64,000 nt of DNA from a virus: IMG/VR virus record IMGVR_UViG_3300045988_179151. The stretch is one strand, 5' to 3'. Made by a program: the position numbers and the translations under genes. Below are positions 9,443 through 47,585 of the stretch, in pieces (positions within the stretch are counted from its first letter, which is position 1; every line of letters starts with the position of its first letter). The notes under the pieces are model-generated. The model searched no databases, was not told the DNA's origin, and saw nothing but the letters and a program-made list of their open reading frames with translations.

Positions 9443-9781
9443 ATGCAAATCATTAAACGTAACGGTTCACTCGTCGAGTTCGAACCCGACAAAATTTACA
9501 ACGCCATCGTAAAAGCCGCTAGTTCAGTATTCGTCATGACTGACGACTTACGCGAACGTCTTACAGATATTACCAAAAAAGTTGTAATCGACTTACATGA
9601 ATTAAAACTAAAAACAATCACGATCAGCATGATTCAATCTCAAGTCGAACAACGTCTACTTTCCGCCGGTTACACGCAAATCGCGGAACACTACATCTCA
9701 TACCGCCTGCAACGTGACCTAGAACGCTATGGTTACGGCGATCACCTCATCGTTCACTTAAAATTTGAACACATAAAATAA
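9443..9781 (+). CDS. Standalone ATP-cone domain protein (no zinc ribbon, no catalytic RNR domain)
   Basis: MQIIKRNGSLVEFEPDKIYNAIVKAAS... matches the ATP-cone pattern (KRdGs.e.Fd..KI..ai..A) seen at NrdR/RNR N-termini. RBS aaagaaggat upstream. Confidence 0.55.
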   Translation: MQIIKRNGSLVEFEPDKIYNAIVKAASSVFVMTDDLRERLTDITKKVVIDLHELKLKTITISMIQSQVEQRLLSAGYTQIAEHYISYRLQRDLERYGYGDHLIVHLKFEHIK

Positions 9782-10038
9782 ACCCTCGACCGAAATGTCG
9801 TTAAACTAGCCTCTTTCGATTCTCTATGGATGTGCCTCGTTGCTTCTTTCTTTAAAATCTTTTCATCGGCGCATTCATAGAGTTTTTTTATAGAAACACT
9901 CCAAAAACAACGTTTGTCAGCAGTTTCAAATTAGTCATAAATTGATGTAAACTTTTAGTGCTTGTTTGTGTTTTTCTTTTGAGATTCATTCGGTTTTATG
10001 ATATACTTGTTATATCAAAATAAACGAAAGGACGTCTT

Positions 10039-11376
10039 ATGCATAAACGCAAGTTTACGGTTTTCACCCAATTACATGAAGAAAACAATGCCGATTTAAT
10101 TGAATATTTTGATGATCGTCGTGAACGTCAGTCCCAAATTATGCGTAAGACGTTCCAAGTTATTAAAAACACGGAAACGTTTGAAAAATCTAAATATAAT
10201 ACGTATCTTCAAAATAAATATGGAATTACATGTCGAATGGCAAATTCTATTATTTCTGATGCTCAAGGTCGATTAAATGCTTTGAAAGAATTAAAGGTTT
10301 TCGAAAAAGCACAAATCGAACAAAAAATTGGACATTTAGAAAAGAAAGTGCTTCCGAAGCTTATTTCAAAACGTGACGATTGCATTGCTCAATTAAAGGT
10401 TAATCCAAAAGGTTCACCCATTCGACTTCGAAATATTCGACGTAAGATTGTCGCTAAAAAGAATAAACTAAATAGACTGAAACAAAAGCTAGATAATGTG
10501 ACCTATCAGATTGAAACAGGACGTTTAAAATTATGTTTCGGAACTAAATATTTATTGAAGCGTGATTATAGACGTTTTGTTGAACAACGAGATAGTCAAA
10601 TGTCTTTCGTTGGTTCAAAGTCAGAACCCGCTCAAAACCAAATGCTTCAATTAAGCTATAATCCGAAAAACAACCAGTTTAACATCAAATTACGAAAAGA
10701 CTTCGATGGTTATAAAAATGCTAATAAAGACGATAAATACATTTACGGACGCGTTTATTTCAGACATCATAAGTCTGAATTGGTTTCAATTTTACGTCAA
10801 GGTTATAGTCCTCTCAGCTACAAGATTATTAAAAAGGGAAATCGTTTTTATCTATATTGTACCTTTGAGATCCATGTCGAAGATGATGAATTCTTGACAC
10901 GCTCGTCTTATGGAACAATTGGGCTTGACTTTAACAAAGGTTTCGTGACGTTGTCAGAAACCAATGAGTATGGTCATCTTCTACGAACGCAAGTCTTACC
11001 TTATCGCTTTAAATCTGGTTCTAAGACAAGAACCGATCTTCAAAAGTTAGTGAATGATGTTGTCGATTTAGCACTTCAAACAGGTAAAGATATTTGTATT
11101 GAAGATTTGAATTTCAAAAAGAAAAAGGCTAAAACCGAATCAAGACAAGGTTGTAAATATAACGAAATGTTACATTCTTTAACCTATCGTCAGTTTAGCC
11201 ATTTTATCGAAGGCATTGCCTTTCGAAATCTAGTTTATGTAAGAAAAGTCAACCCCGCGTGGACGTCTTGGTTGGCGAAAGAACTTTATTGTCCACGAAT
11301 GAAACTCAATGTTCACGTCGGAGCTTCATTCGTTATTGCGAGACGTGGACAAGGTTTTAAAGACGCCTTTAAATGA
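10039..11376 (+). CDS. tnpB: TnpB-like protein (445 aa) with RuvC-I/II motifs, but catalytic Asp replaced in RuvC-III and zinc finger lost (putative nuclease-dead, TldR-like)
   Basis: IGLDFN is the RuvC-I Asp motif; CIEDLNF is the RuvC-II Glu motif. C-terminus NPAWTSWLAKELYCPRMKLNVHVGASFVIARRG aligns to the canonical NPAYTSQ.C..CG...DADVNAAINIARRG with D->H and no CxxC pairs. Confidence 0.6.
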   Translation: MHKRKFTVFTQLHEENNADLIEYFDDRRERQSQIMRKTFQVIKNTETFEKSKYNTYLQNKYGITCRMANSIISDAQGRLNALKELKVFEKAQIEQKIGHLEKKVLPKLISKRDDCIAQLKVNPKGSPIRLRNIRRKIVAKKNKLNRLKQKLDNVTYQIETGRLKLCFGTKYLLKRDYRRFVEQRDSQMSFVGSKSEPAQNQMLQLSYNPKNNQFNIKLRKDFDGYKNANKDDKYIYGRVYFRHHKSELVSILRQGYSPLSYKIIKKGNRFYLYCTFEIHVEDDEFLTRSSYGTIGLDFNKGFVTLSETNEYGHLLRTQVLPYRFKSGSKTRTDLQKLVNDVVDLALQTGKDICIEDLNFKKKKAKTESRQGCKYNEMLHSLTYRQFSHFIEGIAFRNLVYVRKVNPAWTSWLAKELYCPRMKLNVHVGASFVIARRGQGFKDAFK

Positions 11377-11600
11377 GTTCTTTAAACAATCAGCCTTATA
11401 AAGATGTATGAACGCAAGACAGTTTGGCATCTCCCTTTAAGGCCTTGTTCAATTAGAAACTTCAATGACAAATCTTATTGTATGGCATTTGTCGAAATGA
11501 GATGAATTGAAGCGGAATAGGTTAACGGTTAGACCTTGAATTAAAAAATTCTAAAATTGATCTCAAAGGTGACTATTACTTTTTAATACTTTTGAGTAAC
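11377..11600 (+). ncRNA. Putative omega-RNA (reRNA) scaffold of TnpB-like copy 1
   Basis: About 190 nt right after the stop are ~96% identical to the matching region of copy 2. This is more conserved than the proteins (~90%). Ends ...ctaaaattgatc and then diverges. Confidence 0.5.
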
Positions 11601-11801
11601 CGTTCTAAAAACGCTGTCGTTCTCGACCGAGCAATCCTTACGATTGTGAGTTGAAATATCCTTTCTATATTCGGTCTGACGCACTAACTACTCAACTCAG
11701 ACCTAAACACTACAGCGAAACTCGTTGTAGTGCTTTTTTTATGGGCAACGTTCCACGAACGTTGCCGAAATCTATCGAAATATCACTAGAAAGAAGACAC
11801 T

Positions 11802-12269
11802 ATGCAAACACCCATCACAACATCATTAGACCATCTAATTCCTATTCTTTCCGAAGAACATCAACAGTTCATCGATAGTATCGTGCAAAAAATTGAATCG
11901 AATCACGTCACCTACATCCTACCATCACAAGGCTTATCATCGGTACAGATCGCTGAGACCGCATCCCGCACCATTGAACTTGCAACAGACGGGCAAACTT
12001 ATGTAGCAAAACCACACTTGATTGAATCATTTGACGAATTTGATGCCAAAATGGTAGATCCACTCAAACAAAAACTATCAAATTCAAGCATTGTCATCAT
12101 TGAAGCCAACTATAACAACTATTTGGAAGTAATCCCTCAAATGTTTATTCTTGCCGATGAACTTGCAAGTACCGGTGCAAAAATTGTCATTCCCTGTACA
12201 AAAGACGAATTAACCGTTATTAAAGAAGTTGAGCGAGCGGTTCGTTCAATGTTAAAACCTGTAGACTAA
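11802..12269 (+). CDS. Hypothetical protein (155 aa)
   Basis: ORF with upstream RBS region. No motif recognised. Confidence 0.4.
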   Translation: MQTPITTSLDHLIPILSEEHQQFIDSIVQKIESNHVTYILPSQGLSSVQIAETASRTIELATDGQTYVAKPHLIESFDEFDAKMVDPLKQKLSNSSIVIIEANYNNYLEVIPQMFILADELASTGAKIVIPCTKDELTVIKEVERAVRSMLKPVD

Positions 12270-12485
12270 AAACTCAAAAAATAATATAATAGATGTAATA
12301 TCTAAACATAGAAAGAGTTTTCTCAAATGCACCCAAAAACATTTACATCGTTTATTCACAATAAAATTCTAGCTCAGGATCTCAAAGGTTATAAGCCTGC
12401 TATAAAATCATCCGATATGACCGATTATGCAAAAAAAACCTATCGTCAAATCGCAAAATCCTTTAAAAAATCTCGGAAATAGAAA

Positions 12486-14213
12486 GTGAGTAAACACATG
12501 CAAAGACTTGATTTTAATATTTCAGACCAAACCATTCTATCATTTGACGTCGATCATAAAACAAAAACGGCACGTCTTATTGAAACAACAGATGAATTCG
12601 CAGCACGAGTCTTATTGACTCCTGATGAGCGAACCTACAACGGTATTGAACGACGTTTGAACGAATTCCAACAATCAGATAAACCCTTAGTCGAACACTT
12701 GATGGATATTGAAAACGATGGTTTTCACGCGCCAATGCAACAAAACCTAAATATCAACAATAGCGATAACGCTATAAAAGAAACGAAGGCTCCAACAGAT
12801 GCATCTCTCATCGAATTGCCAAGTAATTTCGGAAATACAAATATCAACGGGCTTCAGCAAAAAGATAATATTCAAATTGAAAATGAATCTTATTTTGTAA
12901 AATTGGACTCATTATCGCCAATCGTCAATGGTTCGTGGGATAACAACTTCGATTCACAATATTCATCTGTCTCTGAAGCCATTACATCAATCCTACTCAA
13001 AAACATTAAAAACGCCGATCAACTAAACAGCGTTCTTTACGAATGGCGTGAATTTGACTTAAATGGGAAAAAAGTTACAGGTACGATCTCAAAAAACTTC
13101 TTACAAGAAAACGAAGAAGAACATGTCCTGTCCATTCAAAACAGATCCGATAAATACACACATATTTCTATCAAAGAATATGAAAAAAACATGTATGACG
13201 TCAATTCCGAAACCCGTATCAAGAATCTAATGACGGCTTTTGCATCCGCAAATGTCGATAAAAATGCGAGCCAAAACTTTCTCATACAACAAGCCGCATT
13301 TGATATGTTCATCGGTAACCAAGACCGCGTAAACAATCCGTCAAACTTTGTATTTGCCTACAATACAAAAGACCAAACAACACGATTAGTTAATTTGGAC
13401 TATGGCCGTGCATTACCAATGCTTTGGACTGCTACATCTGAAGCCAATTGCGACATTAAAGAATTATTAGACGAAGACCTTCCAGACTTTGCAGAAGACC
13501 TCAATCGTTCAAATGATTCCATTCTAAGTGGTATGCAAAAAAATCAAGCTATGGATTTTCTACACGACCATGGATTTGAGCCATTTGAAGTTAACATTCA
13601 ACAACTTCATACGGACCTTGACGAGTTGAAAGAGCGAATTCTCGCATCCGACGCGCCTTATAAGAAATTCGCTGAAATGAAGATTGAATCATTTAGAGAA
13701 ATGTTAAATAGTGATTTTTCAAAGAACTTCTATAAAGAAATCACTACCGAAAAACCAGAACCCGTTGTCTTTAAAAAATTCGATGTCGTTTTAGGTTATT
13801 TCCCAACTACCGAAGTTCCTAGTGACAACTACATCTCCCACGAAAGCCAACTTGAAGAAAACAAAACAGAAGGTGAATATCGACCACTTGTTCTATTAGC
13901 TGAGAAAAACGGTAAATACATAGCCGTTCAAGGACGTAGCGCCGAAAACCAACAAGAATGGCCCCACCACTATGCGCTTCAAAATGCAAAAGAAGCTGGA
14001 TTAGTTGAAGAAACCACATTAACTACAAATATCGAACAAATTCTTTACATTGAACCGGAAGCTCTTCAAGAAATGACGCCTCTAGGCCACCTGTCGCAAA
14101 ACGACAAAGAAGCTTTTCTAAAAGAATTCGCAAGAGAAAACCACGTTCAAAAACAAATAGAGCGACATCATGCGTCGCAATCAAAAGAAAAGGATCATGG
14201 ATTAGAACCCTAA
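12486..14213 (+). CDS. HipA-like / PI3-PI4-kinase-like protein kinase domain protein (575 aa)
   Basis: FIGNQDRVNNPSNFVF resembles the catalytic loop (GN.D.H.KN.S in HipA; DRHxxN in PI3K). NLDYG resembles the DFG-like Mg-binding motif. RBS aaagtgagtaaacac before the ATG. Confidence 0.45.
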   Translation: MSKHMQRLDFNISDQTILSFDVDHKTKTARLIETTDEFAARVLLTPDERTYNGIERRLNEFQQSDKPLVEHLMDIENDGFHAPMQQNLNINNSDNAIKETKAPTDASLIELPSNFGNTNINGLQQKDNIQIENESYFVKLDSLSPIVNGSWDNNFDSQYSSVSEAITSILLKNIKNADQLNSVLYEWREFDLNGKKVTGTISKNFLQENEEEHVLSIQNRSDKYTHISIKEYEKNMYDVNSETRIKNLMTAFASANVDKNASQNFLIQQAAFDMFIGNQDRVNNPSNFVFAYNTKDQTTRLVNLDYGRALPMLWTATSEANCDIKELLDEDLPDFAEDLNRSNDSILSGMQKNQAMDFLHDHGFEPFEVNIQQLHTDLDELKERILASDAPYKKFAEMKIESFREMLNSDFSKNFYKEITTEKPEPVVFKKFDVVLGYFPTTEVPSDNYISHESQLEENKTEGEYRPLVLLAEKNGKYIAVQGRSAENQQEWPHHYALQNAKEAGLVEETTLTTNIEQILYIEPEALQEMTPLGHLSQNDKEAFLKEFARENHVQKQIERHHASQSKEKDHGLEP

Positions 14214-14638
14214 TGACTCATAAAAAATATACAAATATCTTCGTTGACATTGAACTATTAAACGGTGATATCGTTAAATACCAAATACCAAATGACCTAC
14301 AAAAACCAATGAAACAAGCCTGGTTCGATAATAGTCTTAGCGAAGTTCTTTTAGACGCGCTCATCAATGTGCCAACATCACCATATAAAAAAGATGGTTC
14401 TGTGAAACTACATCTTGGTAGAATCGTCGCTATTCACTGTTTACACAAAAAGCAACAATTAAGAACGCGAGGTCAGTTCTTAACCAACGATGCATGGCAA
14501 GGAAAACTTGACAAAACACAAATTAAGTTCCTCTTACACGACCACTCGTTTTTGAACAAAGGCCGGATTCGATTTGACCTTTTTCGGTGGCAACGCAGAT
14601 TTTCCTCTAAAACGACGTCTAAGCGCTTAAAAAAATAA
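14213..14638 (+). CDS. Basic hypothetical protein (141 aa), translationally coupled to the kinase (TAATG overlap)
   Basis: ATGA/TAATG stop-start overlap at 14211-14215. Lys/Arg-rich. Confidence 0.4.
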   Translation: MTHKKYTNIFVDIELLNGDIVKYQIPNDLQKPMKQAWFDNSLSEVLLDALINVPTSPYKKDGSVKLHLGRIVAIHCLHKKQQLRTRGQFLTNDAWQGKLDKTQIKFLLHDHSFLNKGRIRFDLFRWQRRFSSKTTSKRLKK

Positions 14639-14781
14639 ATGGATAATTACATTACTCGCAAATAAAAATACAACAGAAGACAAAAGAGAGCCTCTGAGGA
14701 CTCTTTTGAATACAATCATGAACTATTAGCCAATATTTTAGCCTACGTTATGGATACTGACTTCATTCAAATTTTTAAACG

Positions 14782-15723
14782 ATGGAAATCCCTGATTTTA
14801 ATCGGGGGAAATCGTTCCTTTCTTTAAAATTTGTCAATGATTTGACTTTTTTGTGGAAACCGATTGAATTTAAACGTCCTCAAGTAGACTTAGTTCGTAA
14901 TCGCGATTATAGCTTCAAAAATGATATGTTGTCTATGAATACGATTAACGGACGTATTTTCGTTAAAGTTTATGGTCTTCCTGAAAATCATTATTTCGAT
15001 GGTTCGTGGAAACTTGGAATTGGAAAAGTAGTTCGAAGTGGAAAACATTGGTTTTTCCATATTTCCGTAACTAAAGAAGTTCCTGATTTCGAAATGAAAG
15101 ATTTGAAACACGTTGTTGGAATTGATCGTGGATTACGTCAAATCTTAACAACTTATGACGAAAAAGGTCAAACTCGTTTTGTGAATGGTGCGTTTATTTC
15201 GAAAAAACGCAAACATTATGCTAAATTGAGAGCACGTCTTCAAGCTAAAGGAACGAAATCAGCGAAACGTCGTTTACGTTCTTTAAGTGGACGAGAATCC
15301 CGTTGGATGAGTGATGTAAATCATCAGTTATCTAAGACACTCGTTCAAACTTATGGTAAACAAACGTTATTCGTTCTTGAAGATTTAACAGGCGTGACTT
15401 TTGAGACGGTTCATTCTCGTAAAAAAGAGAATCGTTATGAGCATCATTCTTGGTCATTTTATGATTTAGAACAAAAACTTCGGTATAAGGCTCACTTAAA
15501 TGAAAGTGAAGTTGTCTTAGTAGATGCTCATTATACGAGTCAACGTTGTCCTAAATGTGGAACGATTGATAAATCGAATCGTGATAAAGACATTCACCAA
15601 TATACATGTTCTAATTGTGGTTATTCGAGTAATGATGATCGAGTAGGTGCAATGAACATTTATGAACTTGGAAAATGGTTTGTCTCAGGCGTTGAAGAAC
15701 CAGCCTTTTCGATAAATGAATAA
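14782..15723 (+). CDS. tnpB: TnpB (IS605 OrfB family), compact or N-terminally truncated (313 aa), with intact RuvC and zinc finger
   Basis: VVGIDRGLRQ is RuvC-I; FVLEDL is RuvC-II; DAHYTSQRCPKCG...CSNCG...NDDRVGAMNI is the Zn finger plus RuvC-III. An in-frame stop lies 2 codons upstream of the ATG, so no longer N-terminus exists. Confidence 0.7.
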   Translation: MEIPDFNRGKSFLSLKFVNDLTFLWKPIEFKRPQVDLVRNRDYSFKNDMLSMNTINGRIFVKVYGLPENHYFDGSWKLGIGKVVRSGKHWFFHISVTKEVPDFEMKDLKHVVGIDRGLRQILTTYDEKGQTRFVNGAFISKKRKHYAKLRARLQAKGTKSAKRRLRSLSGRESRWMSDVNHQLSKTLVQTYGKQTLFVLEDLTGVTFETVHSRKKENRYEHHSWSFYDLEQKLRYKAHLNESEVVLVDAHYTSQRCPKCGTIDKSNRDKDIHQYTCSNCGYSSNDDRVGAMNIYELGKWFVSGVEEPAFSINE

Positions 15724-15960
15724 ATAGACATGCGTAAACGTATGTCATTGCCGTAGCCCATCAACCTGCGGATTTAGAAATACTTTTCTAAAAAGAAGTC
15801 TCAATTGTTTCGTTTGTTTAAACGAAGTGTGTGGGAGGAAGTTGCTTCTGCTTGACCACATTCAAATTAAGGACAAACCACCTACTTTAGTGGGTGGTAG
15901 TTGATCCCCCTTCAATATGATGGCACAAACACTACCGATGATGAGCTTCGACTTCGCGCA
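15724..15960 (+). ncRNA. Possible omega-RNA-like structured 3' region of TnpB 14782
   Basis: Structured noncoding stretch with hairpins (cgtttgtttaaacg; ccacctactttagtgggtgg) directly after the TnpB stop. By analogy only. Confidence 0.3.
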
Positions 15961-16075
15961 CGATACGACATCATTCACTTGGCCAACCAACTCTTACCAA
16001 AAGAAACACTAGCCGACTATTTTATTCCAAATTTGGATAAATCTAATAATCAATAAACGAAAGGATACAAAACTT

Positions 16076-18505
16076 ATGCGTACTTTACTACTACTCCGCG
16101 GTGCACCAGGCGCCGGAAAATCAACTTGGATTGAAGAAAACAATTTACAAAATTACACTCTTGAGGCGGATAAATTCCGACAACTCACATCAAATCCCGT
16201 TCTTGGATTAAACGGCGATCTCCACATTACGCAAGACAACGACCGACTAGCATGGGATTTACTGTTCCAAGCGCTTGAATCACGCATGCAACGCGGTGAT
16301 TTCACTATCGTTGACGCGACACACTCAAATGAAGCCATGTTCAACAAATATCGAGGGCTCATCGAAAAATATCGATATAAGATTTATTACAAAACTTTTG
16401 ACGTTGATCTCGAAGAACTTGAACGTCGCAATTTAACGCGCCCTGAGCACAAACGTGTTCCTCTTGACGCTGTCCGCCGTGTCAAAGCCTTAGTTGATAA
16501 CACAAAACCAACATCATCAGCAACAGAAATCAACGACATTTCTGAAATCATCAATTACTGGACAGACGATTTAACCAACAAATACGAAAACGTCAAAATC
16601 ATCGGTGACCTCCAAGGTTGTTACTCCGTGCTCAAAGAAGCAATTGGCTCTGAACTAAATCCAAACACCAAATATGTCTTCGCTGGGGATATTCTCGACC
16701 GAGGCATTGAAAACAAAGAAGTCTTAGATTTCATGCTATCCATCTATACAAAGCCAAACGTTGTCTTCGTCGAAGGAAACCACGACACACATTTGCGTAA
16801 TTGGGCAATGGACACATGGCCATTGAAGAAATCAGGTGAACCAAATATTCCTCGTGAATTCAACTTTAAAACTCTTCCTCAATTATTGGATCAAAAGAAA
16901 AAATCAGAATTTACGATTGGAACTCATGAGGTTGATGACGCTATCTATTACACTGTAAATGACAAACTAACAACCATCCCGGTTTGGACGTCCTACGATG
17001 AATCCATTGTCACAGAACCACATCTCAAATACAAAGATGGCACTCTCTGGCTAAAACCATATAAAACATCACGGACCGAAATCGACACCGGAATTCCGGT
17101 TAATCGAATCGATTCCGAACAACTAAAATCAAAAGTTCGACAATTCGTACGTCGATTCCGACTAGCTTACGCTTTTGAATTCCACGATCAAAAATACTTT
17201 GTCAACCATGGTGGTATTTCCGCTCTTCCAAACATGGTCACCATTTCAGGTGAACAACTCATCAAAGGTGTCGGAGCCTATGAATATCAAATCGATGAAG
17301 CTTGGGAACAAAGCTATCTCGCTAATAAAACGCAAGGATTTATCCAAGTGCACGGTCATCGCCACACAGAATCCACTGAACACTCTATCTGTCTTGAAGA
17401 TGATGTTGAATATGGCGGTAATCTCGTCATTCTTGAAATTTCAAAAGACGGTCATGAAGTTAAAAAATTCAAAAATAAAGTTTTCAAAGTACCAACTGAA
17501 GATGACTTTGAACGTGAACGTAAAGCCTGGATCGAAGACACACAAAACCCAATCACAAATAAAATGATCCACGATAAATACATCAAAGTCAAAGACCTTG
17601 ATGATAACCTTATGTCGTTGAACTTCAGCGAAAAAGCTTTCTACAAAAAGAAATGGACGGAAAACACCATTACAGCTCGTGGATTATTCGTCGACAAAAC
17701 GTCAGGTGATATCAAAATCCGTTCCTATAACAAATTCTTCAACCTCAACGAAAATGCAGAAACATCCGTCCGAGAATTGAAAAAGAAAGTCGCCTATCCA
17801 TTGATGGCTTATGAGAAGTATAACGGATTCTTAGGAATTGCCTCATCAGTAAACAGCGTGTTCACATTAGCTTCAAAATCAACAACAAGTGGACCTTTCG
17901 TAGAATACTTCCAAGAAATCTTTAACGATTTGACTGACTCTGAAAAAGAACAACTAAAACAATTATCTGAAAAATATCATTGTTCGTTCACATTTGAAGT
18001 GATGCACATTGATGACCGACATATCATTGACTTTAGTCAAAACAGACTCGTCATCCTAGATGCTATTCCTAATTCGTATAACATTAACGGAATCACTGTT
18101 GATGCCACATTCTCCGAAAACGTTCTCAGTCAATTAAACATTGAATCTGATTTCTTCTCACGCAAAGAACTCGTCAAAGAATTCACCTCAATGGAAGACC
18201 TCATGCGTTACATCAATGAACACAAGCATGACCGTACATCTGAAGGGTTGGTTATTGAGGATCAAAACGGTTATATGTTCAAAGTAAAATATGAATATTA
18301 CACAGAACTTAAACGATTGCGTGGTCTCCGAGACGTGGTGAAAGCGTATTACCATACAAAAAACGTTACGCAATACGCCAAAAATGCCACTCAAGTCGCA
18401 TTCGCGGCTTGGTGTAAACAACAACCGTTTGAAAAATTAAAAGAATGTCACATCATTGACTTATTTAAAGAATACGAAGAACAACTCGGCACGAAAGTGC
18501 TATAA
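16076..18505 (+). CDS. pnkp: Polynucleotide kinase-phosphatase (Pnkp-like RNA repair enzyme): P-loop kinase, calcineurin-like phosphoesterase and ligase-like nucleotidyltransferase domains
   Basis: GAPGAGKST is Walker A. IGDLQGC / AGDILDRG / EGNHD are metallophosphatase motifs (the first His is replaced by Gln). AYEKYNGFLG is a K-x-NG motif-I-like ligase element. 809 aa with the bacterial Pnkp architecture. RBS cgaaaggata. Confidence 0.6.
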   Translation: MRTLLLLRGAPGAGKSTWIEENNLQNYTLEADKFRQLTSNPVLGLNGDLHITQDNDRLAWDLLFQALESRMQRGDFTIVDATHSNEAMFNKYRGLIEKYRYKIYYKTFDVDLEELERRNLTRPEHKRVPLDAVRRVKALVDNTKPTSSATEINDISEIINYWTDDLTNKYENVKIIGDLQGCYSVLKEAIGSELNPNTKYVFAGDILDRGIENKEVLDFMLSIYTKPNVVFVEGNHDTHLRNWAMDTWPLKKSGEPNIPREFNFKTLPQLLDQKKKSEFTIGTHEVDDAIYYTVNDKLTTIPVWTSYDESIVTEPHLKYKDGTLWLKPYKTSRTEIDTGIPVNRIDSEQLKSKVRQFVRRFRLAYAFEFHDQKYFVNHGGISALPNMVTISGEQLIKGVGAYEYQIDEAWEQSYLANKTQGFIQVHGHRHTESTEHSICLEDDVEYGGNLVILEISKDGHEVKKFKNKVFKVPTEDDFERERKAWIEDTQNPITNKMIHDKYIKVKDLDDNLMSLNFSEKAFYKKKWTENTITARGLFVDKTSGDIKIRSYNKFFNLNENAETSVRELKKKVAYPLMAYEKYNGFLGIASSVNSVFTLASKSTTSGPFVEYFQEIFNDLTDSEKEQLKQLSEKYHCSFTFEVMHIDDRHIIDFSQNRLVILDAIPNSYNINGITVDATFSENVLSQLNIESDFFSRKELVKEFTSMEDLMRYINEHKHDRTSEGLVIEDQNGYMFKVKYEYYTELKRLRGLRDVVKAYYHTKNVTQYAKNATQVAFAAWCKQQPFEKLKECHIIDLFKEYEEQLGTKVL

Positions 18506-18518
18506 AAAGGAAGTTAAC

Positions 18519-18767
18519 ATGAAAATCAAACAAACTACCGTCCACCGTATTGACGTGCCCGAACGCTTCCAAACCAACTGGGAGCCTATCGTCCACTCAT
18601 GGATTGACACGCATAATGATGTGTTTCCCGACGACATCATCGAAAACATAGAGCCTCAAATTGAGTATTATACTCGCAACGACGGCGAATCCATGATGGA
18701 GGGCTATATCAACATTACGTTGAGTTACCTAGTAGACGCTACAAAAGCGCACGACTTCCCACATTAG
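18519..18767 (+). CDS. Small hypothetical protein
   Basis: Internal ATG (MKIKQTTVHRID...) with RBS aaaaaggaagttaac. The longer ORF-track start overlaps pnkp. Confidence 0.45.
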   Translation: MKIKQTTVHRIDVPERFQTNWEPIVHSWIDTHNDVFPDDIIENIEPQIEYYTRNDGESMMEGYINITLSYLVDATKAHDFPH

Positions 18768-18778
18768 AAAGAAAAACT

Positions 18779-19045
18779 ATGACTACTAAAAAGACAGAAC
18801 TCACATTTGAAGAATCAATCGATCAAGCCCTCGAGATTCTACAACAATTACGACAAAAAGAAAATAACAACGCAGCATTCATCCTGACAGCCTCACAAGA
18901 TGACCCGACAACCCCATCATCCATTCTTGTGTCATGCGTCGCGACAGGACCTATTACGAATCAACTAAACGGACTCGCGCAATATGTCGCAAGCGATTCA
19001 CGCATTATGCCCGTCTTAGAAAAATTCTATAAATTAACAAAATAG
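18779..19045 (+). CDS. Small hypothetical protein (88 aa)
   Basis: ORF with RBS gaaagaaaaactatg. Followed by a terminator. Confidence 0.45.
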   Translation: MTTKKTELTFEESIDQALEILQQLRQKENNNAAFILTASQDDPTTPSSILVSCVATGPITNQLNGLAQYVASDSRIMPVLEKFYKLTK

Positions 19046-19075
19046 AGTGCTTATTCAAGCACTCTATTTTTCTTT
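19043..19075 (+). terminator. Rho-independent terminator
   Basis: tagagtgctt-attc-aagcactcta followed by tttttcttt. Confidence 0.7.
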
Positions 19076-19099
19076 GTCCCGATTTAGCTTATCTTTTTG

Positions 19100-21180
19100 T
19101 CCCCGTTCATTTCTTATCTAGCAAAATTGACGTCCTCCCGGGGTTGAAACCCCGGGATTCCCGTTTACCTCATGGTAAACGGGCTCAGTTCTCGTCTCCA
19201 ACTCATGGATGAGTCAAAGGCGACTGCTAAACAGCAATGACCTGCTTCGGGTAAAGACCCGATCTCAGTATGTGTCTGAGCATTGGAAGTTTCACAAGAT
19301 GGAAGACACATATTAAAAATACGTATCGTTCGCCTCAAAACCTCTTTATACTGTGTAGAAAGAAGAGGTTCTGTCTTGTGCGGTAACGAAGGAGCGTCAG
19401 TCCCTCGGGTTTTATCGTCTTTTCCTTGACAAACATTTTATTTTAGATACCAAGCTAAACGCTCGGTTTCGATTGGTTCTTGAAGGAAGTCCTTCATTTG
19501 CTTATAGAAAGCAGGAAAATCCTGTTCTAATTGTTCTTGTTGGTAGTGACCGTTCTCAATATGTCCGATGAGAAAGGCTGAGTAGAGATCGCGTTGTACG
19601 TCTGGGTATTCACTGGACAGGTCATACACGCGAGTGGAAAGCGATTTTTTATCAAAGGTTTGAGTGATGTGGTTGTACTGGCTCGGTTTCACGTCTTTTG
19701 GTGAAATGACTTCGACGTCAATACCGAGTTGAGAAGCTCTTGTTTCAAGAGCGACTCTCAAAGCGCTTGGAGCGGCCCTAAAAATGGCTTTTCCAAAACG
19801 CTTCTTACTATAAGGTCGATTGGTCTTTGGATTGATGCGAATATCTCGACTTCGTCTTTGAAGTCCTTTGACACCCAATTCCTCAATCCGGATGCTCGAC
19901 GCTTGTGAAACAATTCGGCTAACTAGTTGACCTTGAATCTTTTTACGCTCTTCAGATAAAGAGCGGTAAACCTTGCGCCTGCGATTTCGCAAACGAACTT
20001 GTCGATTGGACGGGCGTTTAAATCGGGCGCCTTTCTTGATTTTACCCCGCTCATCATAGCACTCAGGGTTATTCACTCGTTGACTGCGCTCAATGTTTCG
20101 GTCGAGTTCTTTCAGGAGTTTTTCCTTCCGAGCGATGGTTGTAGGTACTAAATCAACCAAGGCAACTTCTGTTGGTGACGCAAAGGCCACCGTCGAAATA
20201 CCCGGGTCAATTCCAACCACTCCTTCACCTTTGGTAACCTTTGGCGGTGGAAATCCCTGACAGACAATCTGGAGGTAATAAACCTTCTTTCCTCGAATGG
20301 TTTTTCGAACGATTTGGACATATTTGATTTTCTCACTACGCATCAAGCTGATTTGTTGGTATTTGTTAAAAGCTTTAACTGGAATATCTACAAAAGTTGA
20401 AGCTTTGTGGATATAAAGTCGATAAGCAATACCTTCTTTATCTGACGGTTCGAGTCTAGTTCCTGTCGTGTTGACACGATTGCGGAAACTAACATCTAAA
20501 TCGAACTTACTTCTAAAATGCACTTTGTGCGGTTTGATTTGATAGAAGAGAACTTTTTCTAAAGTTTTATAAGCTTGAGCGGCAATCACCTGGATTTCAC
20601 CTGAGTTGAATTGCTGGTAAGGCGAACCCGGTTTTCTTCGTTGCTGAGCAAGAACTTTTTGAAGTTCCGATTCGGTCAAGCTATACGCTTTTCGTAATTC
20701 GAAAAGAGCGTTGTCATAGTCTTTGACTTGTTTGCTTAAAGCTTTGTCTTTTTTCTTAGTCTTTTTCAAAGCAGCTAATTTAGCAACAACAGGGCGTCGT
20801 GCTTCTAGCAATTCTTGATACTGGGAGTTTTGCTTGAGGGCTTCAAATCGTTTGAGTCCAAAGCTCAGTGCCTCATTATAAGCACTATTTGAAATACGCA
20901 AACTTTTTTCCAATCGTTTTGCAATTGACTCAGGAAACGGAACCTTTGTCGAAACCACATAACTTGAGGTTTGTGCTCGCATATGGGCACACTCCTTTCC
21001 ATTTACTTTTTATCAATAGTATATCATAAATGATATCAAACATCAAGTTTTACCGGTTCAGAAACCTGAGGATTTATTTGATGAGAAACGTAAATGAACG
21101 GCATTAAATGGTATATTTGAGAATATCGTCGGCCCGATTCATCCTGGGGTTGAAACCCCGGGCTTTCTCGGTCCATCTAT
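19100..21180 (-). mobile_element. TnpB-only IS-like element bounded by matching subterminal hairpins
   Basis: cccggggttgaaaccccggg at 19137-19156 and cctggggttgaaaccccggg at 21143-21162 flank the TnpB gene. About 340 nt of structured noncoding sequence lie 3' of the gene (19100-19437). Confidence 0.55.
19438..20982 (-). CDS. tnpB: Large TnpB-like RuvC nuclease (514 aa), no zinc finger
   Basis: GIDPGISTVAFA is RuvC-I; IRIEEL is RuvC-II; DVQRDLYSAFLIGHI is a RuvC-III-like D..(N/Y)(A/S)A..(N/L)I. No Cys pairs in the C-terminus. Confidence 0.55.
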   Translation of the reverse strand: MRAQTSSYVVSTKVPFPESIAKRLEKSLRISNSAYNEALSFGLKRFEALKQNSQYQELLEARRPVVAKLAALKKTKKKDKALSKQVKDYDNALFELRKAYSLTESELQKVLAQQRRKPGSPYQQFNSGEIQVIAAQAYKTLEKVLFYQIKPHKVHFRSKFDLDVSFRNRVNTTGTRLEPSDKEGIAYRLYIHKASTFVDIPVKAFNKYQQISLMRSEKIKYVQIVRKTIRGKKVYYLQIVCQGFPPPKVTKGEGVVGIDPGISTVAFASPTEVALVDLVPTTIARKEKLLKELDRNIERSQRVNNPECYDERGKIKKGARFKRPSNRQVRLRNRRRKVYRSLSEERKKIQGQLVSRIVSQASSIRIEELGVKGLQRRSRDIRINPKTNRPYSKKRFGKAIFRAAPSALRVALETRASQLGIDVEVISPKDVKPSQYNHITQTFDKKSLSTRVYDLSSEYPDVQRDLYSAFLIGHIENGHYQQEQLEQDFPAFYKQMKDFLQEPIETERLAWYLK

Positions 21181-21190
21181 GTAATAAATC

Positions 21191-22294: not shown

Positions 22295-22337
22295 TGACGT
22301 TCTAGCGGTGTAATAGGTTGAAGATAATACTACCGTT

Positions 22338-22561
22338 ACTCAAAAGTACTAAAATGTAATAATAATAACTTTTAAGATCAATTTTAGAATTTTTCAATTC
22401 AAGGTCTAACGGTTAACCTATTCCACTTCAATTCATCTCATTTCGACTAATGCCAGGCAATAAGACTTGTCATTGAAGTTTCTAATTGAACAAGGCCTTA
22501 AAGGGAGATGCCAAACTGTCTTGCGTTCATACATCTTTATAAGGCTGATTGTTTAAAGAAC
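22338..22561 (-). ncRNA. Putative omega-RNA scaffold of TnpB-like copy 2
   Basis: The reverse complement of 22372-22561 matches 11377-11566 with about 7 mismatches. The sequence diverges beyond ...ctaaaattgatc. Confidence 0.5.
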
Positions 22562-23899
22562 TCATTTAAAGGCGTCTTTAAAACCTTGTCCACGTCTCGC
22601 AATAACGAATGAAGCTCCGACGTGAACATTGAGTTTCATTCGTGGACAATAATGTTTTTTCGCCAACCAAGACGTCCACGCAGGGTTGACTTTTCTTACA
22701 TAAACTAGATTTCGAAAAGCAATGTTTTCGACAACATTAGAAAATTGACGATAGGCTAAAGAGTGTAACATTTCGTTGTATTTACGACCTTGTCTTGATT
22801 CTGTTTTAGCCTTCTTCTTTTTAAAATTCAAATCTTCAATGCAAATATCTTTACCTGTTTGAAGAGCAAGTTCGACAATCTCATTCACTAACTTTTGAAG
22901 ATCCGTTGTTGTCTTAGAACCAGCTTTAAAACGATACGGCAAAACTTGCGTTCGTAGAAGATGACCATACTCATTGGTTTCTGACAAGGTGACGAAACCT
23001 TTGTTGAAATCAAGACCAATTGTTCCATAAGACGAACGTGTTAAAAAATCATCATCTTCGACATGAATCTCAAAAGTGCAATATAGATAAAAACGATTTC
23101 GCTTTTTAATAATTTTGTAACTAAGAGGGCTATAACCTTGTCGTAAAATTGAAACAAGTTTAGATTTGTGATGTCGGAAATAGACGCGCCCGTAAACGTA
23201 TTTATCTTCTTTACTAGCATTTTTGTAATCTCCGAAATCTTTTCGCAATTTAATGTCAAATTGATTGTTTTTCGGATTATAACTTAATTGGAGCATATGA
23301 TTTTGTGCTTTTTCGGATTTTGAACCAACGAAAGACATTTGACTGTCTCGTTGTTCAACAAAACGTTTATAATTGCGCTTCAATAAATATTTAGTGCCAA
23401 AACACAATTTTAAATGTCCAAACTCAATTTGATAAATTATGTTTTCTAATTTTTGTTTTAGTCGATTTAGTTTATTCTTTTTATAGACGATTTTGTGTCG
23501 AACATTTCGAAGTCGAACTGGTGAACCTTTTGAATTAGATTTTAACTGAGCAATGTAATCATCGCGTTTTAGAATAAGCTTTGGAAGCACTTTCTTTTCT
23601 AAATGTTCAATCTTTTGTTCAAGCTGCTTTTTTTCGAAAACCTTTAATTCTTTCAAAGCATTTAATCGACCTTGAGCATCAGAAATAATAGAATTTGCCA
23701 TTCGACATGTAATTCCATATTTATTTTGAAGATACGTATTATAACTTGATTTATCAAACTCATCTGCGTTTTTAATTAGATGAAACGTCTCACGCATGGA
23801 TTTCGCATAACATTCACGACGATCATCAAAATATTCAATTAAATCAGCATTGTTTTTCTCATGCAATTGAGTGAAAACCGTAAACTTACGTTTATGCAT
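22562..23899 (-). CDS. tnpB: TnpB-like protein, paralog of 10039..11376 (~90% aa identity), same D->H RuvC-III change and no zinc finger
   Basis: C-terminus NPAWTSWLAKKHYCPRMKLNVHVGASFVIARRGQGFKDAFK. Substitutions cluster in the N-terminal half. Confidence 0.6.
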   Translation of the reverse strand: MHKRKFTVFTQLHEKNNADLIEYFDDRRECYAKSMRETFHLIKNADEFDKSSYNTYLQNKYGITCRMANSIISDAQGRLNALKELKVFEKKQLEQKIEHLEKKVLPKLILKRDDYIAQLKSNSKGSPVRLRNVRHKIVYKKNKLNRLKQKLENIIYQIEFGHLKLCFGTKYLLKRNYKRFVEQRDSQMSFVGSKSEKAQNHMLQLSYNPKNNQFDIKLRKDFGDYKNASKEDKYVYGRVYFRHHKSKLVSILRQGYSPLSYKIIKKRNRFYLYCTFEIHVEDDDFLTRSSYGTIGLDFNKGFVTLSETNEYGHLLRTQVLPYRFKAGSKTTTDLQKLVNEIVELALQTGKDICIEDLNFKKKKAKTESRQGRKYNEMLHSLAYRQFSNVVENIAFRNLVYVRKVNPAWTSWLAKKHYCPRMKLNVHVGASFVIARRGQGFKDAFK

Positions 23900-23998
23900 T
23901 GATGTTCCTTTCTATGTATTTTCAATATACTAATTATATCACAAATCAGAAAGAACATCAAATAAAAAAAGTCAAAAATCATTACAACTATAAAAAAG

Positions 23999-47570: not shown

Positions 47571-47585
47571 AAAGGGCTTTATATA

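What the first reader, a model, noticed from the sequence alone, without database searches (positions are those of the whole stretch)
11802..18505. Cargo between the inverted TnpB-like copies: HipA/PI3K-like kinase operon plus a trifunctional Pnkp-type RNA-repair enzyme
Three overlapping or coupled genes sit between the inverted TnpB-like copies:
- an unknown 155-aa protein
- a 575-aa protein with a HipA/PI3-PI4-kinase-like catalytic core (GNQDRVNNPSN ... NLDYG)
- a basic 141-aa protein

After one more TnpB comes an 809-aa kinase-phosphatase-ligase fusion with the Pnkp architecture, but no Hen1 partner.

Phage T4 uses Pnk plus RNA ligase to heal tRNAs cut by host anticodon nucleases, so a single-polypeptide Pnkp in a phage-like region is a plausible counter-defence. 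HipA-type kinases target translation factors. The first phosphatase motif reads GDLQG rather than GDxHG, so phosphatase activity is uncertain.

The whole segment is bracketed by IS-like copies and internally invaded by two more, so it looks like an exchangeable cargo island.
Basis: partly seen in the sequence, partly recalled or inferred. Interest (0 to 1): 0.65.

Follow-up and report, generated by a model that had tools for sequence, protein, structure and literature searches.

The report
Phage HipA-like kinase and RNA-repair enzyme
This stretch of a very large phage genome carries a previously unclassified HipA-type protein kinase and, separately, a common phage enzyme that repairs cut RNA; both belong to the phage backbone, and the TnpB mobile elements around them inserted later, one at a time.

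Summary

**The 575-aa protein (more likely 571 aa, starting at 12498)** is a HipA-superfamily kinase.
- No Pfam or NCBIfam model detects it.
- Its N-terminal 90 residues fold like HipS, which corresponds to HipA N-subdomain 1.
- In distant relatives that domain is a separate ~90-aa gene just downstream of the kinase, as in hipJS toxin-antitoxin modules.
- The family is rare and found almost only on large phage contigs.

**The 809-aa protein** is a full-length member of a widespread phage family, phrog_8238, present in Staphylococcus, SPbeta-like Bacillus and Fusobacterium phages.
- It has a T4-Pnk-like kinase, a lambda-phosphatase-like esterase and an Rnl1/Trl1-type ligase with its lysine (K581).
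- It is not a bacterial Pnkp: TIGR04075 scores 55 bits against a cut-off of 750.
- GDLQG is a recurrent natural variant, with Q in 18 and H in 19 of 39 homologues.
- The ligase carries the four residues that Trl1 is proposed to use to bind a 2'-phosphate.

**The "cargo island" idea is refuted.** Close relatives have the same genes in the same order without the TnpB elements.

Overall, a new variant of known kinds, of moderate interest.

The parts
9888..11600 (+). TnpB-only IS200/IS605-type insertion: 445-aa TnpB-like ORF at 10039-11376 plus its IS605-orfB-I RNA at 11393-11606. It splits the ATP-cone gene from the 155-aa gene.
   Evidence: NCBIfam guided_TnpB is a partial match. Rfam RF03065 scores 189 bits. 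blastn against L062 shows this 1713-bp stretch is absent between L062 5169 and 5189.
11802..12269 (+). Acidic 155-aa protein of unknown function, first gene of the conserved cassette.
   Evidence: ORF; pI 4.75. Homologues lie upstream of the kinase in L003-L005 and L061-L063. No hit in Pfam, NCBIfam, PHROGs or PDB sequences.
12327..12482 (+). Conserved basic 51-aa ORF between the 155-aa gene and the kinase.
   Evidence: 49-76% identity to the ORFs at the same position in L003, L062 and L063. pI 10.25.
12498..14213 (+). HipA-superfamily Ser/Thr-kinase-like protein, 571 aa from the ATG at 12498; the listed ORF starts at the GTG at 12486.
12498..12770 (+). HipS-like domain (equivalent to HipA N-subdomain 1) at the kinase N-terminus.
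12783..13745 (+). Core kinase domain (residues ~100-420 in 575-aa numbering). It holds the Gly-rich loop GxQxK, the ATP-binding lysine K139, the catalytic motif GNxDRxxNxxN and the metal-binding motif DYGR.
13773..14165 (+). C-terminal domain found only in close relatives; tentatively PemK/MazF-like.
   Evidence: The standalone homologue P0094 gives a sub-threshold PemK_toxin hit, E 0.0023. A BFVD PemK/MazF toxin hit has probability 0.84. No hit against PDB sequences. Model pLDDT is low here.
14213..14638 (+). Basic 141-aa DUF7679 protein, start overlapping the kinase stop (TAATG).
   Evidence: Pfam PF24727, E 5e-29. The overlap is shown. The same coupling occurs in L003-L005 and L061-L063. 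Elsewhere DUF7679 occurs without a kinase.
14708..16051 (+). Remnant of a second TnpB element: 313-aa ORF at 14782-15723, lacking about the first 100 model positions. It replaces about 2.5 kb of small genes present in L062.
   Evidence: guided_TnpB E 1.6e-61, matching model positions 101-386. blastn boundaries. The 3' end recurs in L012 and L013.
16076..18505 (+). Trifunctional RNA end-healing and sealing enzyme, 809 aa: 5'-OH polynucleotide kinase (residues ~1-145), dinuclear metallophosphoesterase (~170-470) and Rnl1/Trl1-type ATP-dependent RNA ligase (~500-809).
   Evidence: Pfam AAA_33, Metallophos and RNA_lig_T4_1. phrog_8238 full length, E 7e-176. PDB profile hits to Trl1-LIG, lambda phosphatase, CthPnkp, T4 Pnk and T4 Rnl1. 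Catalytic residues are conserved.
18519..18767 (+). 82-aa ORF that follows the repair enzyme in close relatives.
   Evidence: An 82-aa gene lies downstream of the 815-aa homologue in L061-L063, and the blastn match extends to 18741.
18779..19045 (+). 88-aa backbone gene, conserved next to DUF7679 or to the repair enzyme in relatives.
   Evidence: tblastn and blastn matches.
19438..20982 (-). 514-aa TnpB-like ORF. It lies within a 6.1-kb insertion block (19045-25179) that is absent from L062.
   Evidence: guided_TnpB E 7e-25. blastn boundaries.
22329..23912 (-). Second copy of the 445-aa TnpB element with its IS605-orfB-I RNA (22329-22545), 88% identical to the first copy.

Best explanation
The segment is part of the accessory region of a very large tailed phage, at least 174 kb, most likely with a Gram-positive host. 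It holds two unrelated functional units and several later TnpB insertions.

**Unit 1: four-gene cassette (155 aa, 51 aa, kinase, DUF7679).**
- Its core is an active kinase of the HipA superfamily.
- Shown: the HipA/CtkA fold, an invariant Gly-rich loop, the ATP-binding lysine, the catalytic Asp/Asn residues and the metal-binding Asp, and a HipS-like N-terminal domain.
- Inferred: like HipA and HipT, it transfers phosphate from ATP to a serine or threonine of a cellular protein, most plausibly a component of the translation machinery such as an aminoacyl-tRNA synthetase. It would do this either to take over the host or to arrest the cell against competing phages.
- Inferred: the HipS-like domain sits next to the Gly-rich loop and regulates the kinase. 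Where it is a separate downstream gene, it acts as the antitoxin of a hipJS-like pair.

**Unit 2: the 809-aa enzyme repairs broken RNA on one polypeptide.**
- The kinase domain phosphorylates 5'-OH ends.
- The metallophosphoesterase opens or removes 2',3'-cyclic phosphate.
- The ligase is adenylylated on K581 and seals the ends.
- Its likely role is to undo tRNA cleavage by host anticodon nucleases, as T4 Pnkp plus Rnl1 do.

**TnpB elements.** They are independent, polymorphic insertions and do not mobilise the segment as a unit.
For: **Phage origin.**
- Identical 809-aa protein deposited as Caudoviricetes sp. on a 173,809-bp contig.
- Relatives lie on IMG/VR contigs of 100-230 kb.
- The window also encodes a phage-type primase, NAMPT and PRPP synthase.

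**Kinase.**
- A 49-sequence profile hits CtkA across the GNxDR...N / DxG motifs, E 0.0096.
- Invariant residues.
- The split (kinase plus small gene) and fused forms are documented.
- hipJS organisation and HipS function are taken from PMC8262856 and PMC10627512.

**Repair enzyme.**
- Family and structure matches.
- T4 Pnk essential residues K15, S16, D35, R38 and R126 have counterparts K15, S16, D32, R35 and R122.
- Metal ligands D178, D205, N235, H378, H426 and H428 are conserved.
- Ligase residues K581, N583, G584, E641, E723, K736 and K738 are invariant.
- 338 isolated phage records have a match, and 102 cover at least 80% of the query.

**IS insertions.** Synteny without TnpB in L062 and L063, with precise insertion boundaries. 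Further TnpB genes occur elsewhere in the window.
Against: **Kinase.**
- No sequence model of HipA_C or any other kinase reaches significance on the window protein.
- The full-length model is only moderate, mean pLDDT 66.
- No conserved Ser/Thr precedes the Gly-rich loop, so HipA-style autophosphorylation control is not evident.
- No HTH antitoxin was found in the cassette among the proteins scanned.
- The substrate is entirely inferred.
- DUF7679 also occurs away from kinases.

**Repair enzyme.**
- Q replaces the motif-I histidine. In CthPnkp, H189Q was less active than H189A (PMC2190708).
- No biochemical study of this phage family was found in the searched literature.
- No anticodon nuclease or host is known for this phage.
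Confidence: 0.6

Rival explanations
1. One reading: the genes between the inverted 445-aa TnpB copies form an exchangeable cargo island, a composite transposon, that moves as a unit.
For: Two inverted copies of the same element bracket 11.6-22.3 kb. The region is variable between relatives. The 809-aa gene has unrelated flanks in L010-L012, with DNA similarity starting 21 bp before the ATG and ending at the stop.
Against: The copies are only 88% identical and encode TnpB without a TnpA transposase. L062 and L063 have the same gene order without any TnpB. L061 has the left insertion but no matching right one within 13.7 kb. The window holds at least two further TnpB genes elsewhere, so bracketing is expected by chance.
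Confidence: 0.05
2. The kinase cassette is a toxin-antitoxin or abortive-infection module that the phage carries to exclude competing phages or to enforce its own maintenance, not a host-takeover kinase. Under this reading the 155-aa, 51-aa or DUF7679 protein is the neutraliser.
For: Split relatives have the hipJS-like layout of kinase followed by a HipS-like gene (PMC8262856). One relative sits in a bacterial chromosome islet beside cdaA-glmM, with two Metallophos phosphatase genes. There may be a MazF-like C-terminal domain. A precedent proposal exists for HipA-family kinases of 'Gratiaviridae' phages (PMC8008677).
Against: In the window the HipS-like domain is fused, as in HipA, where that domain is not the antitoxin. 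There is no HTH partner. PADLOC gives no significant hit. Family relatives were recovered almost only on phage or metagenome contigs; scans of the 185,579 species genomes found none apart from one weak hit.
Confidence: 0.3
3. The kinase-like protein phosphorylates a lipid or small molecule, as PI3K/PI4K-type, Fam20-type or CotH-type enzymes do, and not a translation protein.
Against: The HipA-family chains score higher. The HipS-like partner domain and the invariant GxQxK loop are HipA-family features. The window protein has no membrane-targeting features among those examined.
Confidence: 0.1
4. The 809-aa enzyme has a crippled or re-purposed phosphoesterase. It might be a pure 2',3'-cyclic phosphodiesterase, or act on nucleotide signals such as Ap4A or cyclic nucleotides, so it is not a complete T4-style repair pathway.
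For: GDLQG in place of GDxHG. CthPnkp His189 mutants lose monoesterase activity but keep diesterase activity (PMC2190708). There are weak NCBIfam hits to ApaH and PrpE. Two homologues have clearly degenerate phosphatase motifs.
Against: All other metal ligands are conserved. Q recurs in 18 of 39 homologues down to about 41% identity, which argues for selection. The three domains stay fused across hundreds of phages.
Confidence: 0.25

Closest known systems
HipA / HipT / HipJ Ser/Thr kinases of hipBA, hipBST and hipJS toxin-antitoxin modules
   Different: No HipA_C Pfam or NCBIfam hit. The catalytic motif is GNxDRxxNxxN, not the canonical HipA-type motif as I recall it. No conserved autophosphorylation serine before the loop. 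No HipB-type HTH partner was found. It carries an extra C-terminal domain. It is encoded on large phages. Neither toxicity nor a target has been shown.
CtkA (JHP940) of Helicobacter pylori, PDB 3AKJ
   Different: 13% identity. CtkA is a stand-alone core kinase, described in its PDB entry title as a proinflammatory kinase of the bacterium. Here there are added HipS-like and C-terminal domains, and the context is a phage.
HipA-family kinases of 'Gratiaviridae' gut phages (Benler et al. 2021, PMC8008677)
   Same: A phage-encoded, distant HipA-family kinase of unknown role, found by metagenomics.
   Different: Those lie between the portal and capsid genes, next to an ATPase and a glycosyltransferase, in Bacteroidetes phages. 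Here the kinase is in an accessory region with different partners. Sequence relatedness between the two was not tested.
Phage family phrog_8238, annotated 'RNA ligase' in Staphylococcus Twortvirinae and Sextaecvirus, SPbeta-like Bacillus and Fusobacterium phages
   Same: Full-length match (E 7e-176), same three-domain order, 34-42% identity.
   Different: The isolated-phage members examined have GDxH[GS] in motif I. The window protein and its clade have GDxQG.
Bacterial Pnkp of the Pnkp-Hen1 RNA repair system (Clostridium thermocellum)
   Same: Same order of kinase, dinuclear metallophosphoesterase and ligase. The kinase and phosphatase domains match CthPnkp structures (4gp6, 4j6o).
   Different: It fails the TIGR04075 model. 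The ligase domain is of the Rnl1/Trl1 type, not the Hen1-dependent Rnl4 type. There is no Hen1 neighbour.
T4 Pnkp plus T4 Rnl1
   Same: Same proposed job of healing and sealing tRNA cut by anticodon nucleases. The kinase domain is T4-Pnk-like with the essential residues. The ligase matches the Pfam RNA_lig_T4_1 family.
   Different: One polypeptide instead of two. The phosphatase is a metallophosphoesterase, not a DxDxT acylphosphatase. The ligase differs from T4 Rnl1 at four Trl1-signature positions.
Fungal/plant tRNA ligase Trl1 (LIG domain, Rnl6 clade)
   Same: Best PDB sequence matches of the ligase domain (E 1.6e-15 to 8e-11). The alignment runs into the Trl1 C-domain. N583, H649, K746 and R749 align with the Trl1 residues N150, H227, R334 and R337, which are proposed to bind the 2'-phosphate. 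Both are trifunctional heal-and-seal enzymes.
   Different: The domain order is permuted. The end-healing esterase is a metallophosphoesterase, not a 2H cyclic phosphodiesterase. Dependence on a 2'-phosphate is untested.

Membership tests
HipA superfamily kinase | Match to the Pfam HipA_C model or an NCBIfam HipA model | tested here: not met
   No Pfam or NCBIfam hit at E <= 0.1 for the window protein. HipA_C is not among the 25 most frequent Pfam families for the 49 family members scanned.
HipA superfamily kinase | HipA/CtkA-type kinase fold | tested here: met
HipA superfamily kinase | Catalytic Asp with downstream Asn, plus a metal-binding Asp | tested here: met
   D280, N284, N287 and D305 are invariant in 49 sequences. 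They align with the CtkA GNFDRHNGN and FDCG motifs.
HipA superfamily kinase | Gly-rich ATP-binding loop upstream of the ATP-binding lysine | tested here: inconclusive
   G122-x-Q124-x-K126 and K139 are invariant. Equivalence to the HipA loop (residues 151-156; PMC10627512) is inferred from motif and position, not from a residue-level superposition. No conserved Ser/Thr precedes it.
HipA superfamily kinase | HipS-like domain (HipA N-subdomain 1), fused or as a partner gene | tested here: met
HipA superfamily kinase | Growth-arresting Ser/Thr kinase activity neutralised by a cognate antitoxin | not testable with these tools
   Needs expression and phosphorylation assays.
PI3K/PI4K lipid kinases | Match to Pfam PI3_PI4_kinase, and best fold match to PI3K/PI4K | tested here: not met
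   The window protein has no hit. One of 49 relatives hits at E 0.0017. PI4K2A ranks below five HipA-family chains.
Bacterial Pnkp (Pnkp-Hen1 system) | Full-length match to TIGR04075 bacter_Pnkp | tested here: not met
   55 bits against a cut-off of 750, covering residues 3-241 only.
Bacterial Pnkp (Pnkp-Hen1 system) | Rnl4-type ligase domain with an adjacent Hen1 methyltransferase gene | tested here: not met
   The ligase domain matches RNA_lig_T4_1 and Trl1/T4 Rnl1 structures. No CthPnkp ligase chain is among the 60 best PDB hits shown. No methyltransferase was found among the scanned window ORFs.
phrog_8238 (phage 'RNA ligase' trifunctional family) | Full-length profile match | tested here: met
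   E 7.3e-176, residues 1-804 against profile positions 1-733 of 737. 102 phage records cover at least 80% of the query.
ATP-dependent RNA ligase, Rnl1-like adenylyltransferase | Motif I lysine (KxNG/KxDG) and motifs III, IV and V | tested here: met
   K581, N583, G584, E641, E723, G724, K736 and K738 are invariant in 39 sequences. K581 aligns with the Trl1 K148 motif and with the T4 Rnl1 motif.
T4 Rnl1 equivalog | TIGR02308 score above cut-off | tested here: not met
   30.8 bits against a cut-off of 242.
Trl1-LIG / Rnl6 clade | Residues binding the proposed 2'-phosphate (N150, H227, R334, R337 in C. thermophilum Trl1), and a Trl1-type C-domain | tested here: inconclusive
   The profile alignment places N583, H649, K746 and R749 at these positions and extends to Trl1 residue 395 of 407. 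T4 Rnl1 has D, I, H and K there. These are sequence alignments only; no structure comparison of the ligase domain was made.
Trl1-LIG / Rnl6 clade | Requirement for a 3'-OH,2'-PO4 end for sealing | not testable with these tools
   Biochemical property.
Dinuclear metallophosphoesterase (lambda phosphatase / CthPnkp type) | Motifs GDxHG, GDxxDRG, GNH[DE] and the downstream histidines | tested here: inconclusive
   GDLQG (H to Q), GDILDRG, GNHD, H378, H426 and H428 are present. One metal ligand is changed, and the effect on activity is unknown.
Composite transposon / IS-bracketed cargo | Block bounded by functional, near-identical IS copies, and present or absent as a unit | tested here: not met
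   The copies are 88% identical and TnpB-only. Relatives have the inner genes without the IS copies.
PemK/MazF fold (C-terminal domain of the kinase) | Significant profile or fold match | tested here: inconclusive
   Only weak hints: P0094 at E 0.0023, below the Pfam cut-off; hhalign P 0.006; BFVD probability 0.84 with E 0.48; no hit against PDB sequences.

The most novel reading that the evidence does not exclude
The widespread phage heal-and-seal enzyme (phrog_8238) may use fungal/plant-type tRNA ligase chemistry instead of T4-type chemistry.

**Proposed mechanism.**
- Its ligase domain is closer to Trl1 than to T4 Rnl1. It carries invariant counterparts of all four residues that Trl1 is proposed to use to hold the RNA 2'-phosphate.
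- In the clade with GDxQG, the esterase may act only as a cyclic phosphodiesterase and leave 3'-OH,2'-PO4 ends, as CthPnkp His189 mutants do.
- Repaired tRNAs would then carry a 2'-phosphate at the junction. That phosphate could block re-cleavage by the nuclease.

**Why it would matter.** This would supply a natural substrate for bacterial and phage Tpt1/KptA enzymes, whose role in bacteria, as far as I know, is still unclear.

**Evidence that weighs against it.** No KptA gene is in the window. At genus level, isolated phages with KptA are mostly different from those with this enzyme. H189Q itself was poorly active in CthPnkp.
Probability: 0.15. Interest if true: 0.8.

Novelty: new variant of a known kind. 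Interest (0 to 1): 0.5.

Why it matters
**Kinase.**
- The library paper consulted (PMC8008677) counts only two characterised phage protein kinases, and HipA-type kinases in phages are known only from one metagenomic report.
- This family shows the HipS-kinase pair both split and fused, in phages. That gives a natural experiment on how HipS-type domains control HipA-type kinases.
- It also provides a candidate phage tool for switching off host translation or rival phages.

**Repair enzyme.**
- It is ordinary as a gene family, yet no biochemical study of it turned up in the library searches run here.
- Its Trl1-like signature residues and the recurrent His/Gln switch in the esterase make a simple, testable prediction about which RNA ends it makes and joins.

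**Annotation.** TnpB genes that flank a block in these phages mark insertion scars. They are not the boundaries of a mobile island.

Tried and rejected
**Searches that found nothing.**
- Near-identical DNA of 11600-22300 in the phage and plasmid collections: no match.
- tblastn of the kinase, DUF7679 and the 155-aa protein against isolated phages: no match.
- Pfam, NCBIfam and PHROGs on the kinase: nothing. PADLOC: only marginal hits.
- PDB sequence searches for the 155-aa protein, DUF7679 and the kinase C-terminal domain: nothing.
- Literature searches for a biochemical study of the phage fusion, or for an Rnl6-phage link: none found. The paper at DOI 10.1093/nar/gkw722, requested as a likely catalogue of RNA-repair domain architectures, is not held.

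**Searches that failed or were limited.**
- The search for related loci with the wide alignment A2 failed for lack of a conserved stretch.
- Two scans of the 185,579 species genomes gave no true relative apart from one weak hit, L020. One relative does sit in an NCBI assembly (L056).
- The afdb50 fold library was unavailable.
- The 102-aa gene downstream of the kinase in L056 could not be shown to be HipS-like with an independent HMM.

**Ideas rejected.**
- DUF7679 as an obligate kinase partner. It occurs without a kinase in L057-L060.
- A functional link between the kinase and the repair enzyme. L005 has the kinase without the enzyme nearby, and L010-L012 have the enzyme without the kinase.
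- "Family-wide Q in motif I". This was my first reading of the consensus. Counting corrected it to 18 Q and 19 H.
- Co-occurrence of KptA with the enzyme in phages. It is not seen at genus level.

Full report
**Observation.**
- Homologues of the 575-aa protein begin at MQRLDF, so the true start is probably the ATG at 12498, giving 571 aa.
- The kinase stop and the next start overlap in TAATG. The 141-aa protein is basic, pI 10.2.
- The two 445-aa TnpB-like genes form a 1553-nt inverted repeat at 88% identity. Each is followed by an Rfam IS605-orfB-I RNA.

**Source.**
- An identical 809-aa protein is deposited as "MAG TPA: putative kinase [Caudoviricetes sp.]" on a 173,809-bp contig.
- Relatives of both main genes lie on IMG/VR viral contigs of 100-230 kb.
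- The window also encodes a phage-type primase, PRPP synthase, NAMPT, an NMN transporter, a NUDIX protein and an NrdD fragment.
- It encodes a 1586-aa G5-repeat protein with an LPXTG anchor, which points to a Gram-positive host.
- There is no near-identical DNA in the isolated-phage or plasmid collections.

**The TnpB elements are insertions, not island borders.**
- In L062 and L063, where the kinase DNA is about 83% identical, the order is DUF5684, ATP-cone, 160 aa, 53 aa, kinase (571 aa), DUF7679, several small genes, the 815-aa enzyme, 82 aa, 155 aa, 87 aa and the ResIII gene. No TnpB is present.
- blastn against L062 gives exact boundaries:
  - 9888-11600 (the first 445-aa element with its RNA) is a clean 1.7-kb insertion.
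  - 14708-16051 (the 313-aa TnpB, which lacks about the first 100 model positions) replaces 2.5 kb of small genes.
  - 19045-25179 (the 514-aa TnpB, a 367-aa membrane protein, the second 445-aa element and a 287-aa gene) replaces 263 bp.
- L061 shares the first insertion but not the others, so the insertions are polymorphic.
- More distant relatives (L003-L005) keep ATP-cone, 158 aa, 45 aa, kinase, DUF7679 and the 88-aa homologue, without the 809-aa gene.
- L010-L012 have the 809-aa gene at 84% protein identity in unrelated surroundings. DNA similarity starts 21 bp before the ATG and ends at the stop.
- The window holds further TnpB genes at 40330-41931 (with a resolvase gene at 39729-40346) and at 58157-59038.
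- The composite-transposon reading is therefore rejected.

**The kinase: fold and catalytic residues.**
- No Pfam, NCBIfam, PHROG or isolated-phage match was found.
- Only 13 relatives turned up in the word-indexed search of 5.8 billion proteins. An exhaustive profile search of 1.84 billion representatives found 120.
- The AF2 model is moderate overall (mean pLDDT 66) but mostly 70-90 in the core, residues ~100-420.
- A 49-sequence profile hits CtkA as the only meaningful PDB sequence match (E 0.0096). The alignment covers D273, N278, D280, R281 and D305-x-G307.
- Across the 49 sequences G122, K126, K139, D273, N278, D280, N284, N287 and D305 are invariant. Q124, D141, S161, E164, G307 and R308 are nearly so.
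- This is the pattern of an active kinase with a GxQxK Gly-rich loop, an ATP-binding lysine, a catalytic Asp and a metal-binding Asp.
- The positions just before the loop are variable. The HipA Ser150-type autophosphorylation switch (PMC10627512) is therefore not evident.

**The kinase: HipS-like domain.**
- The profile search showed that the first ~90 residues occur as many free-standing ~90-aa proteins.
- In L001, L002, L006-L009, L053 and L054 a ~350-aa (416 aa in L054) core kinase is followed directly by such a gene. In L055 it follows after one intervening gene.
- Modelled alone with 38 sequences, the domain reaches pLDDT 92.5.
- HipS corresponds to HipA N-subdomain 1. It inhibits HipT by inserting next to the Gly-rich loop (PMC10627512).
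- Kinase-then-HipS gene pairs are known as hipJS (PMC8262856).
- The window protein therefore has the fused, HipA-like arrangement, and its distant relatives have the split, TA-like arrangement.

**The kinase: other features.**
- The C-terminal ~140 residues occur only in close relatives. They give three weak but mutually consistent hints of a PemK/MazF-like fold and no PDB sequence hit. I treat this assignment as tentative.
- DUF7679 is coupled to the kinase in this lineage but occurs without a kinase elsewhere.
- The family was not recovered by either scan of the 185,579 representative genomes, apart from one weak hit. One member, however, lies in a bacterial chromosome next to cdaA-glmM with two Metallophos genes. 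Another, on a short metagenome contig, also has a Metallophos gene nearby.
- HipA-family kinases in phages have one metagenomic precedent, the "Gratiaviridae" (PMC8008677).

**Likely mechanism of the kinase.**
- Shown: the fold, the catalytic residue set, and the HipS-like partner in fused and split forms.
- Inferred: ATP-dependent Ser/Thr phosphorylation of a cellular protein, most plausibly in translation as for HipA and HipT. The HipS-like module would gate the active site.
- Whether the phage uses it for host takeover or as an exclusion/toxin module cannot be decided here. I rate these as roughly comparable.

**The 809-aa enzyme: family and catalytic residues.**
- Pfam finds AAA_33 (4-137), Metallophos (from 173) and RNA_lig_T4_1 (534-740).
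- PHROGs gives a full-length match to phrog_8238 "RNA ligase" (E 7e-176).
- tblastn finds it in 338 isolated-phage records, 102 of them near full length. These include Staphylococcus Twortvirinae and Sextaecvirus, SPbeta-like Bacillus phages and Fusobacterium phages; Pseudomonas, Streptomyces and Lactobacillus phages also have matches.
- The bacterial Pnkp model fails: 55 bits against 750, covering residues 3-241.
- A 35-sequence profile matches, by domain:
  - kinase: T4 Pnk and CthPnk;
  - phosphatase: lambda phosphatase and the CthPnkp phosphatase;
  - ligase: Trl1 tRNA ligases (E 1.6e-15 to 8e-11) ahead of T4 Rnl1 (9e-11).
- Counterparts of the T4 Pnk residues K15, S16, D35, R38 and R126 are conserved.
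- Ligase residues K581 (KYNG), E641, E723, G724, K736 and K738 are invariant. K581 aligns with the Trl1 and T4 motif-I lysines.
- The refutation test "lacks the ligase lysine" therefore fails, and the enzyme is a genuine three-activity candidate.
- Absence of Hen1 is expected for a ligase of this type.

**The GDLQG motif.**
- Among 39 homologues the position is Q in 18, H in 19, and K or R in two that have generally degenerate phosphatase motifs.
- The four isolated-phage proteins examined have H.
- Q co-occurs with intact D178, D205, R209, N235, H236, H378, H426 and H428, and is found down to about 41% identity.
- It is therefore a maintained variant and not decay.
- In CthPnkp, replacing the equivalent His189 with Ala or Asp removes monoesterase activity but keeps the Mn-dependent diesterase. 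H189D yields 2'-phosphate, 3'-OH products. H189Q was less active than H189A (PMC2190708).

**An unexpected detail in the ligase domain.**
- The profile-to-Trl1 alignment puts N583, H649, K746 and R749, all invariant, at the positions of C. thermophilum Trl1 N150, H227, R334 and R337.
- Those Trl1 residues bind a sulfate proposed to mimic the RNA 2'-phosphate. The authors state they are unique to the Trl1 clade (PMC6379707).
- T4 Rnl1 has D, I, H and K at these positions.
- The alignment also continues through the Trl1 C-domain.
- Together with the H-to-Q change, this allows a fungal/plant-type pathway with a 2'-phosphate junction.
- Against it: no KptA/Tpt1 gene is in the window. KptA-bearing isolated phages (Erwinia, Dickeya, Klebsiella, Serratia, Clostridioides) are largely different genera from those with this enzyme.
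- I give this reading about 15%.

**Verdict.**
- The fold and domain calls are supported. The labels "Pnkp-type" and "cargo island" are not.
- The kinase is a new, phage-borne variant of the HipA superfamily with an informative HipS split/fusion.
- The repair enzyme is a member of a common, apparently unstudied phage family with a Trl1-like signature.
- Interest is moderate, 0.5.

Noticed in passing
window 12327-12482 (+): Conserved, basic (pI 10.25) 51-aa ORF between the 155-aa gene and the kinase. ORFs at the same position in L003, L062 and L063 are 49-76% identical. It could be a regulator of the cassette.
   Followed up: partly
window 463-8863 (+): Two giant ORFs of 1230 and 1586 aa. The second has six or more G5 domains and an LPXTG cell-wall anchor. 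A sortase-anchored surface protein encoded by a phage is unusual, and related phage contigs (L057) also carry G5/SSSPR proteins.
   Followed up: no
window 39729-41931 (+) and 58157-59038 (-): Further TnpB-family genes: an IS607-like pair (205-aa resolvase plus 533-aa TnpB-like) and a 293-aa TnpB-like ORF. With the four in the finding, that makes at least six TnpB-type genes in 64 kb of phage DNA.
   Followed up: partly
window 9443-9781 (+) and 61290-62153 (+): A free-standing 112-aa ATP-cone protein, conserved in relatives, and about 50 kb away a 287-aa ORF matching the N-terminal part of NrdD. This may be a split or interrupted anaerobic ribonucleotide reductase.
   Followed up: no
window 29433-30107 and 53499-57313 (+): NAD+ salvage set: NUDIX protein, NMN transporter, ribose-phosphate pyrophosphokinase and nicotinamide phosphoribosyltransferase. 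This is typical of phage counter-measures to NAD+ depletion.
   Followed up: no
window 31272-32771 and 33244-33948 (+): A flotillin/SPFH protein of 499 aa and a ThiF-family E1-like protein of 234 aa, both encoded by the phage.
   Followed up: no
L053 2985-3680; L056 7323-9049: In two distant relatives the kinase and the small gene after it are followed by Metallophos (calcineurin-like) phosphatase genes, which suggests a kinase-phosphatase pair. L056 lies in a bacterial chromosome next to cdaA-glmM. In L053 the small gene is HipS-like; in L056 that could not be shown.
   Followed up: partly
proteins P0242-P0244, P0224, P0211 and P0213 (homologues of window 16076-18505): Three homologues are 1096 aa with Hom_end and LAGLIDADG domains, which looks like an intein inside the enzyme. 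One carries N-terminal MerR and resolvase domains, probably a fusion with an IS607 gene. Two have degenerate phosphatase motifs (GELKG, GNLFNKG, GNYD).
   Followed up: no
window 25164-27397 (-): A ResIII/DEAD helicase-like 397-aa gene with weak PbeA/AbiO-type PADLOC hits, together with a 349-aa partner. The pair is conserved next to this region in relatives (L005, L061, L062).
   Followed up: no
window 47154-51366 (+): A run of nine co-oriented ORFs of 115-164 aa with no family match, except an HD-domain protein at 48180-48671.
   Followed up: no
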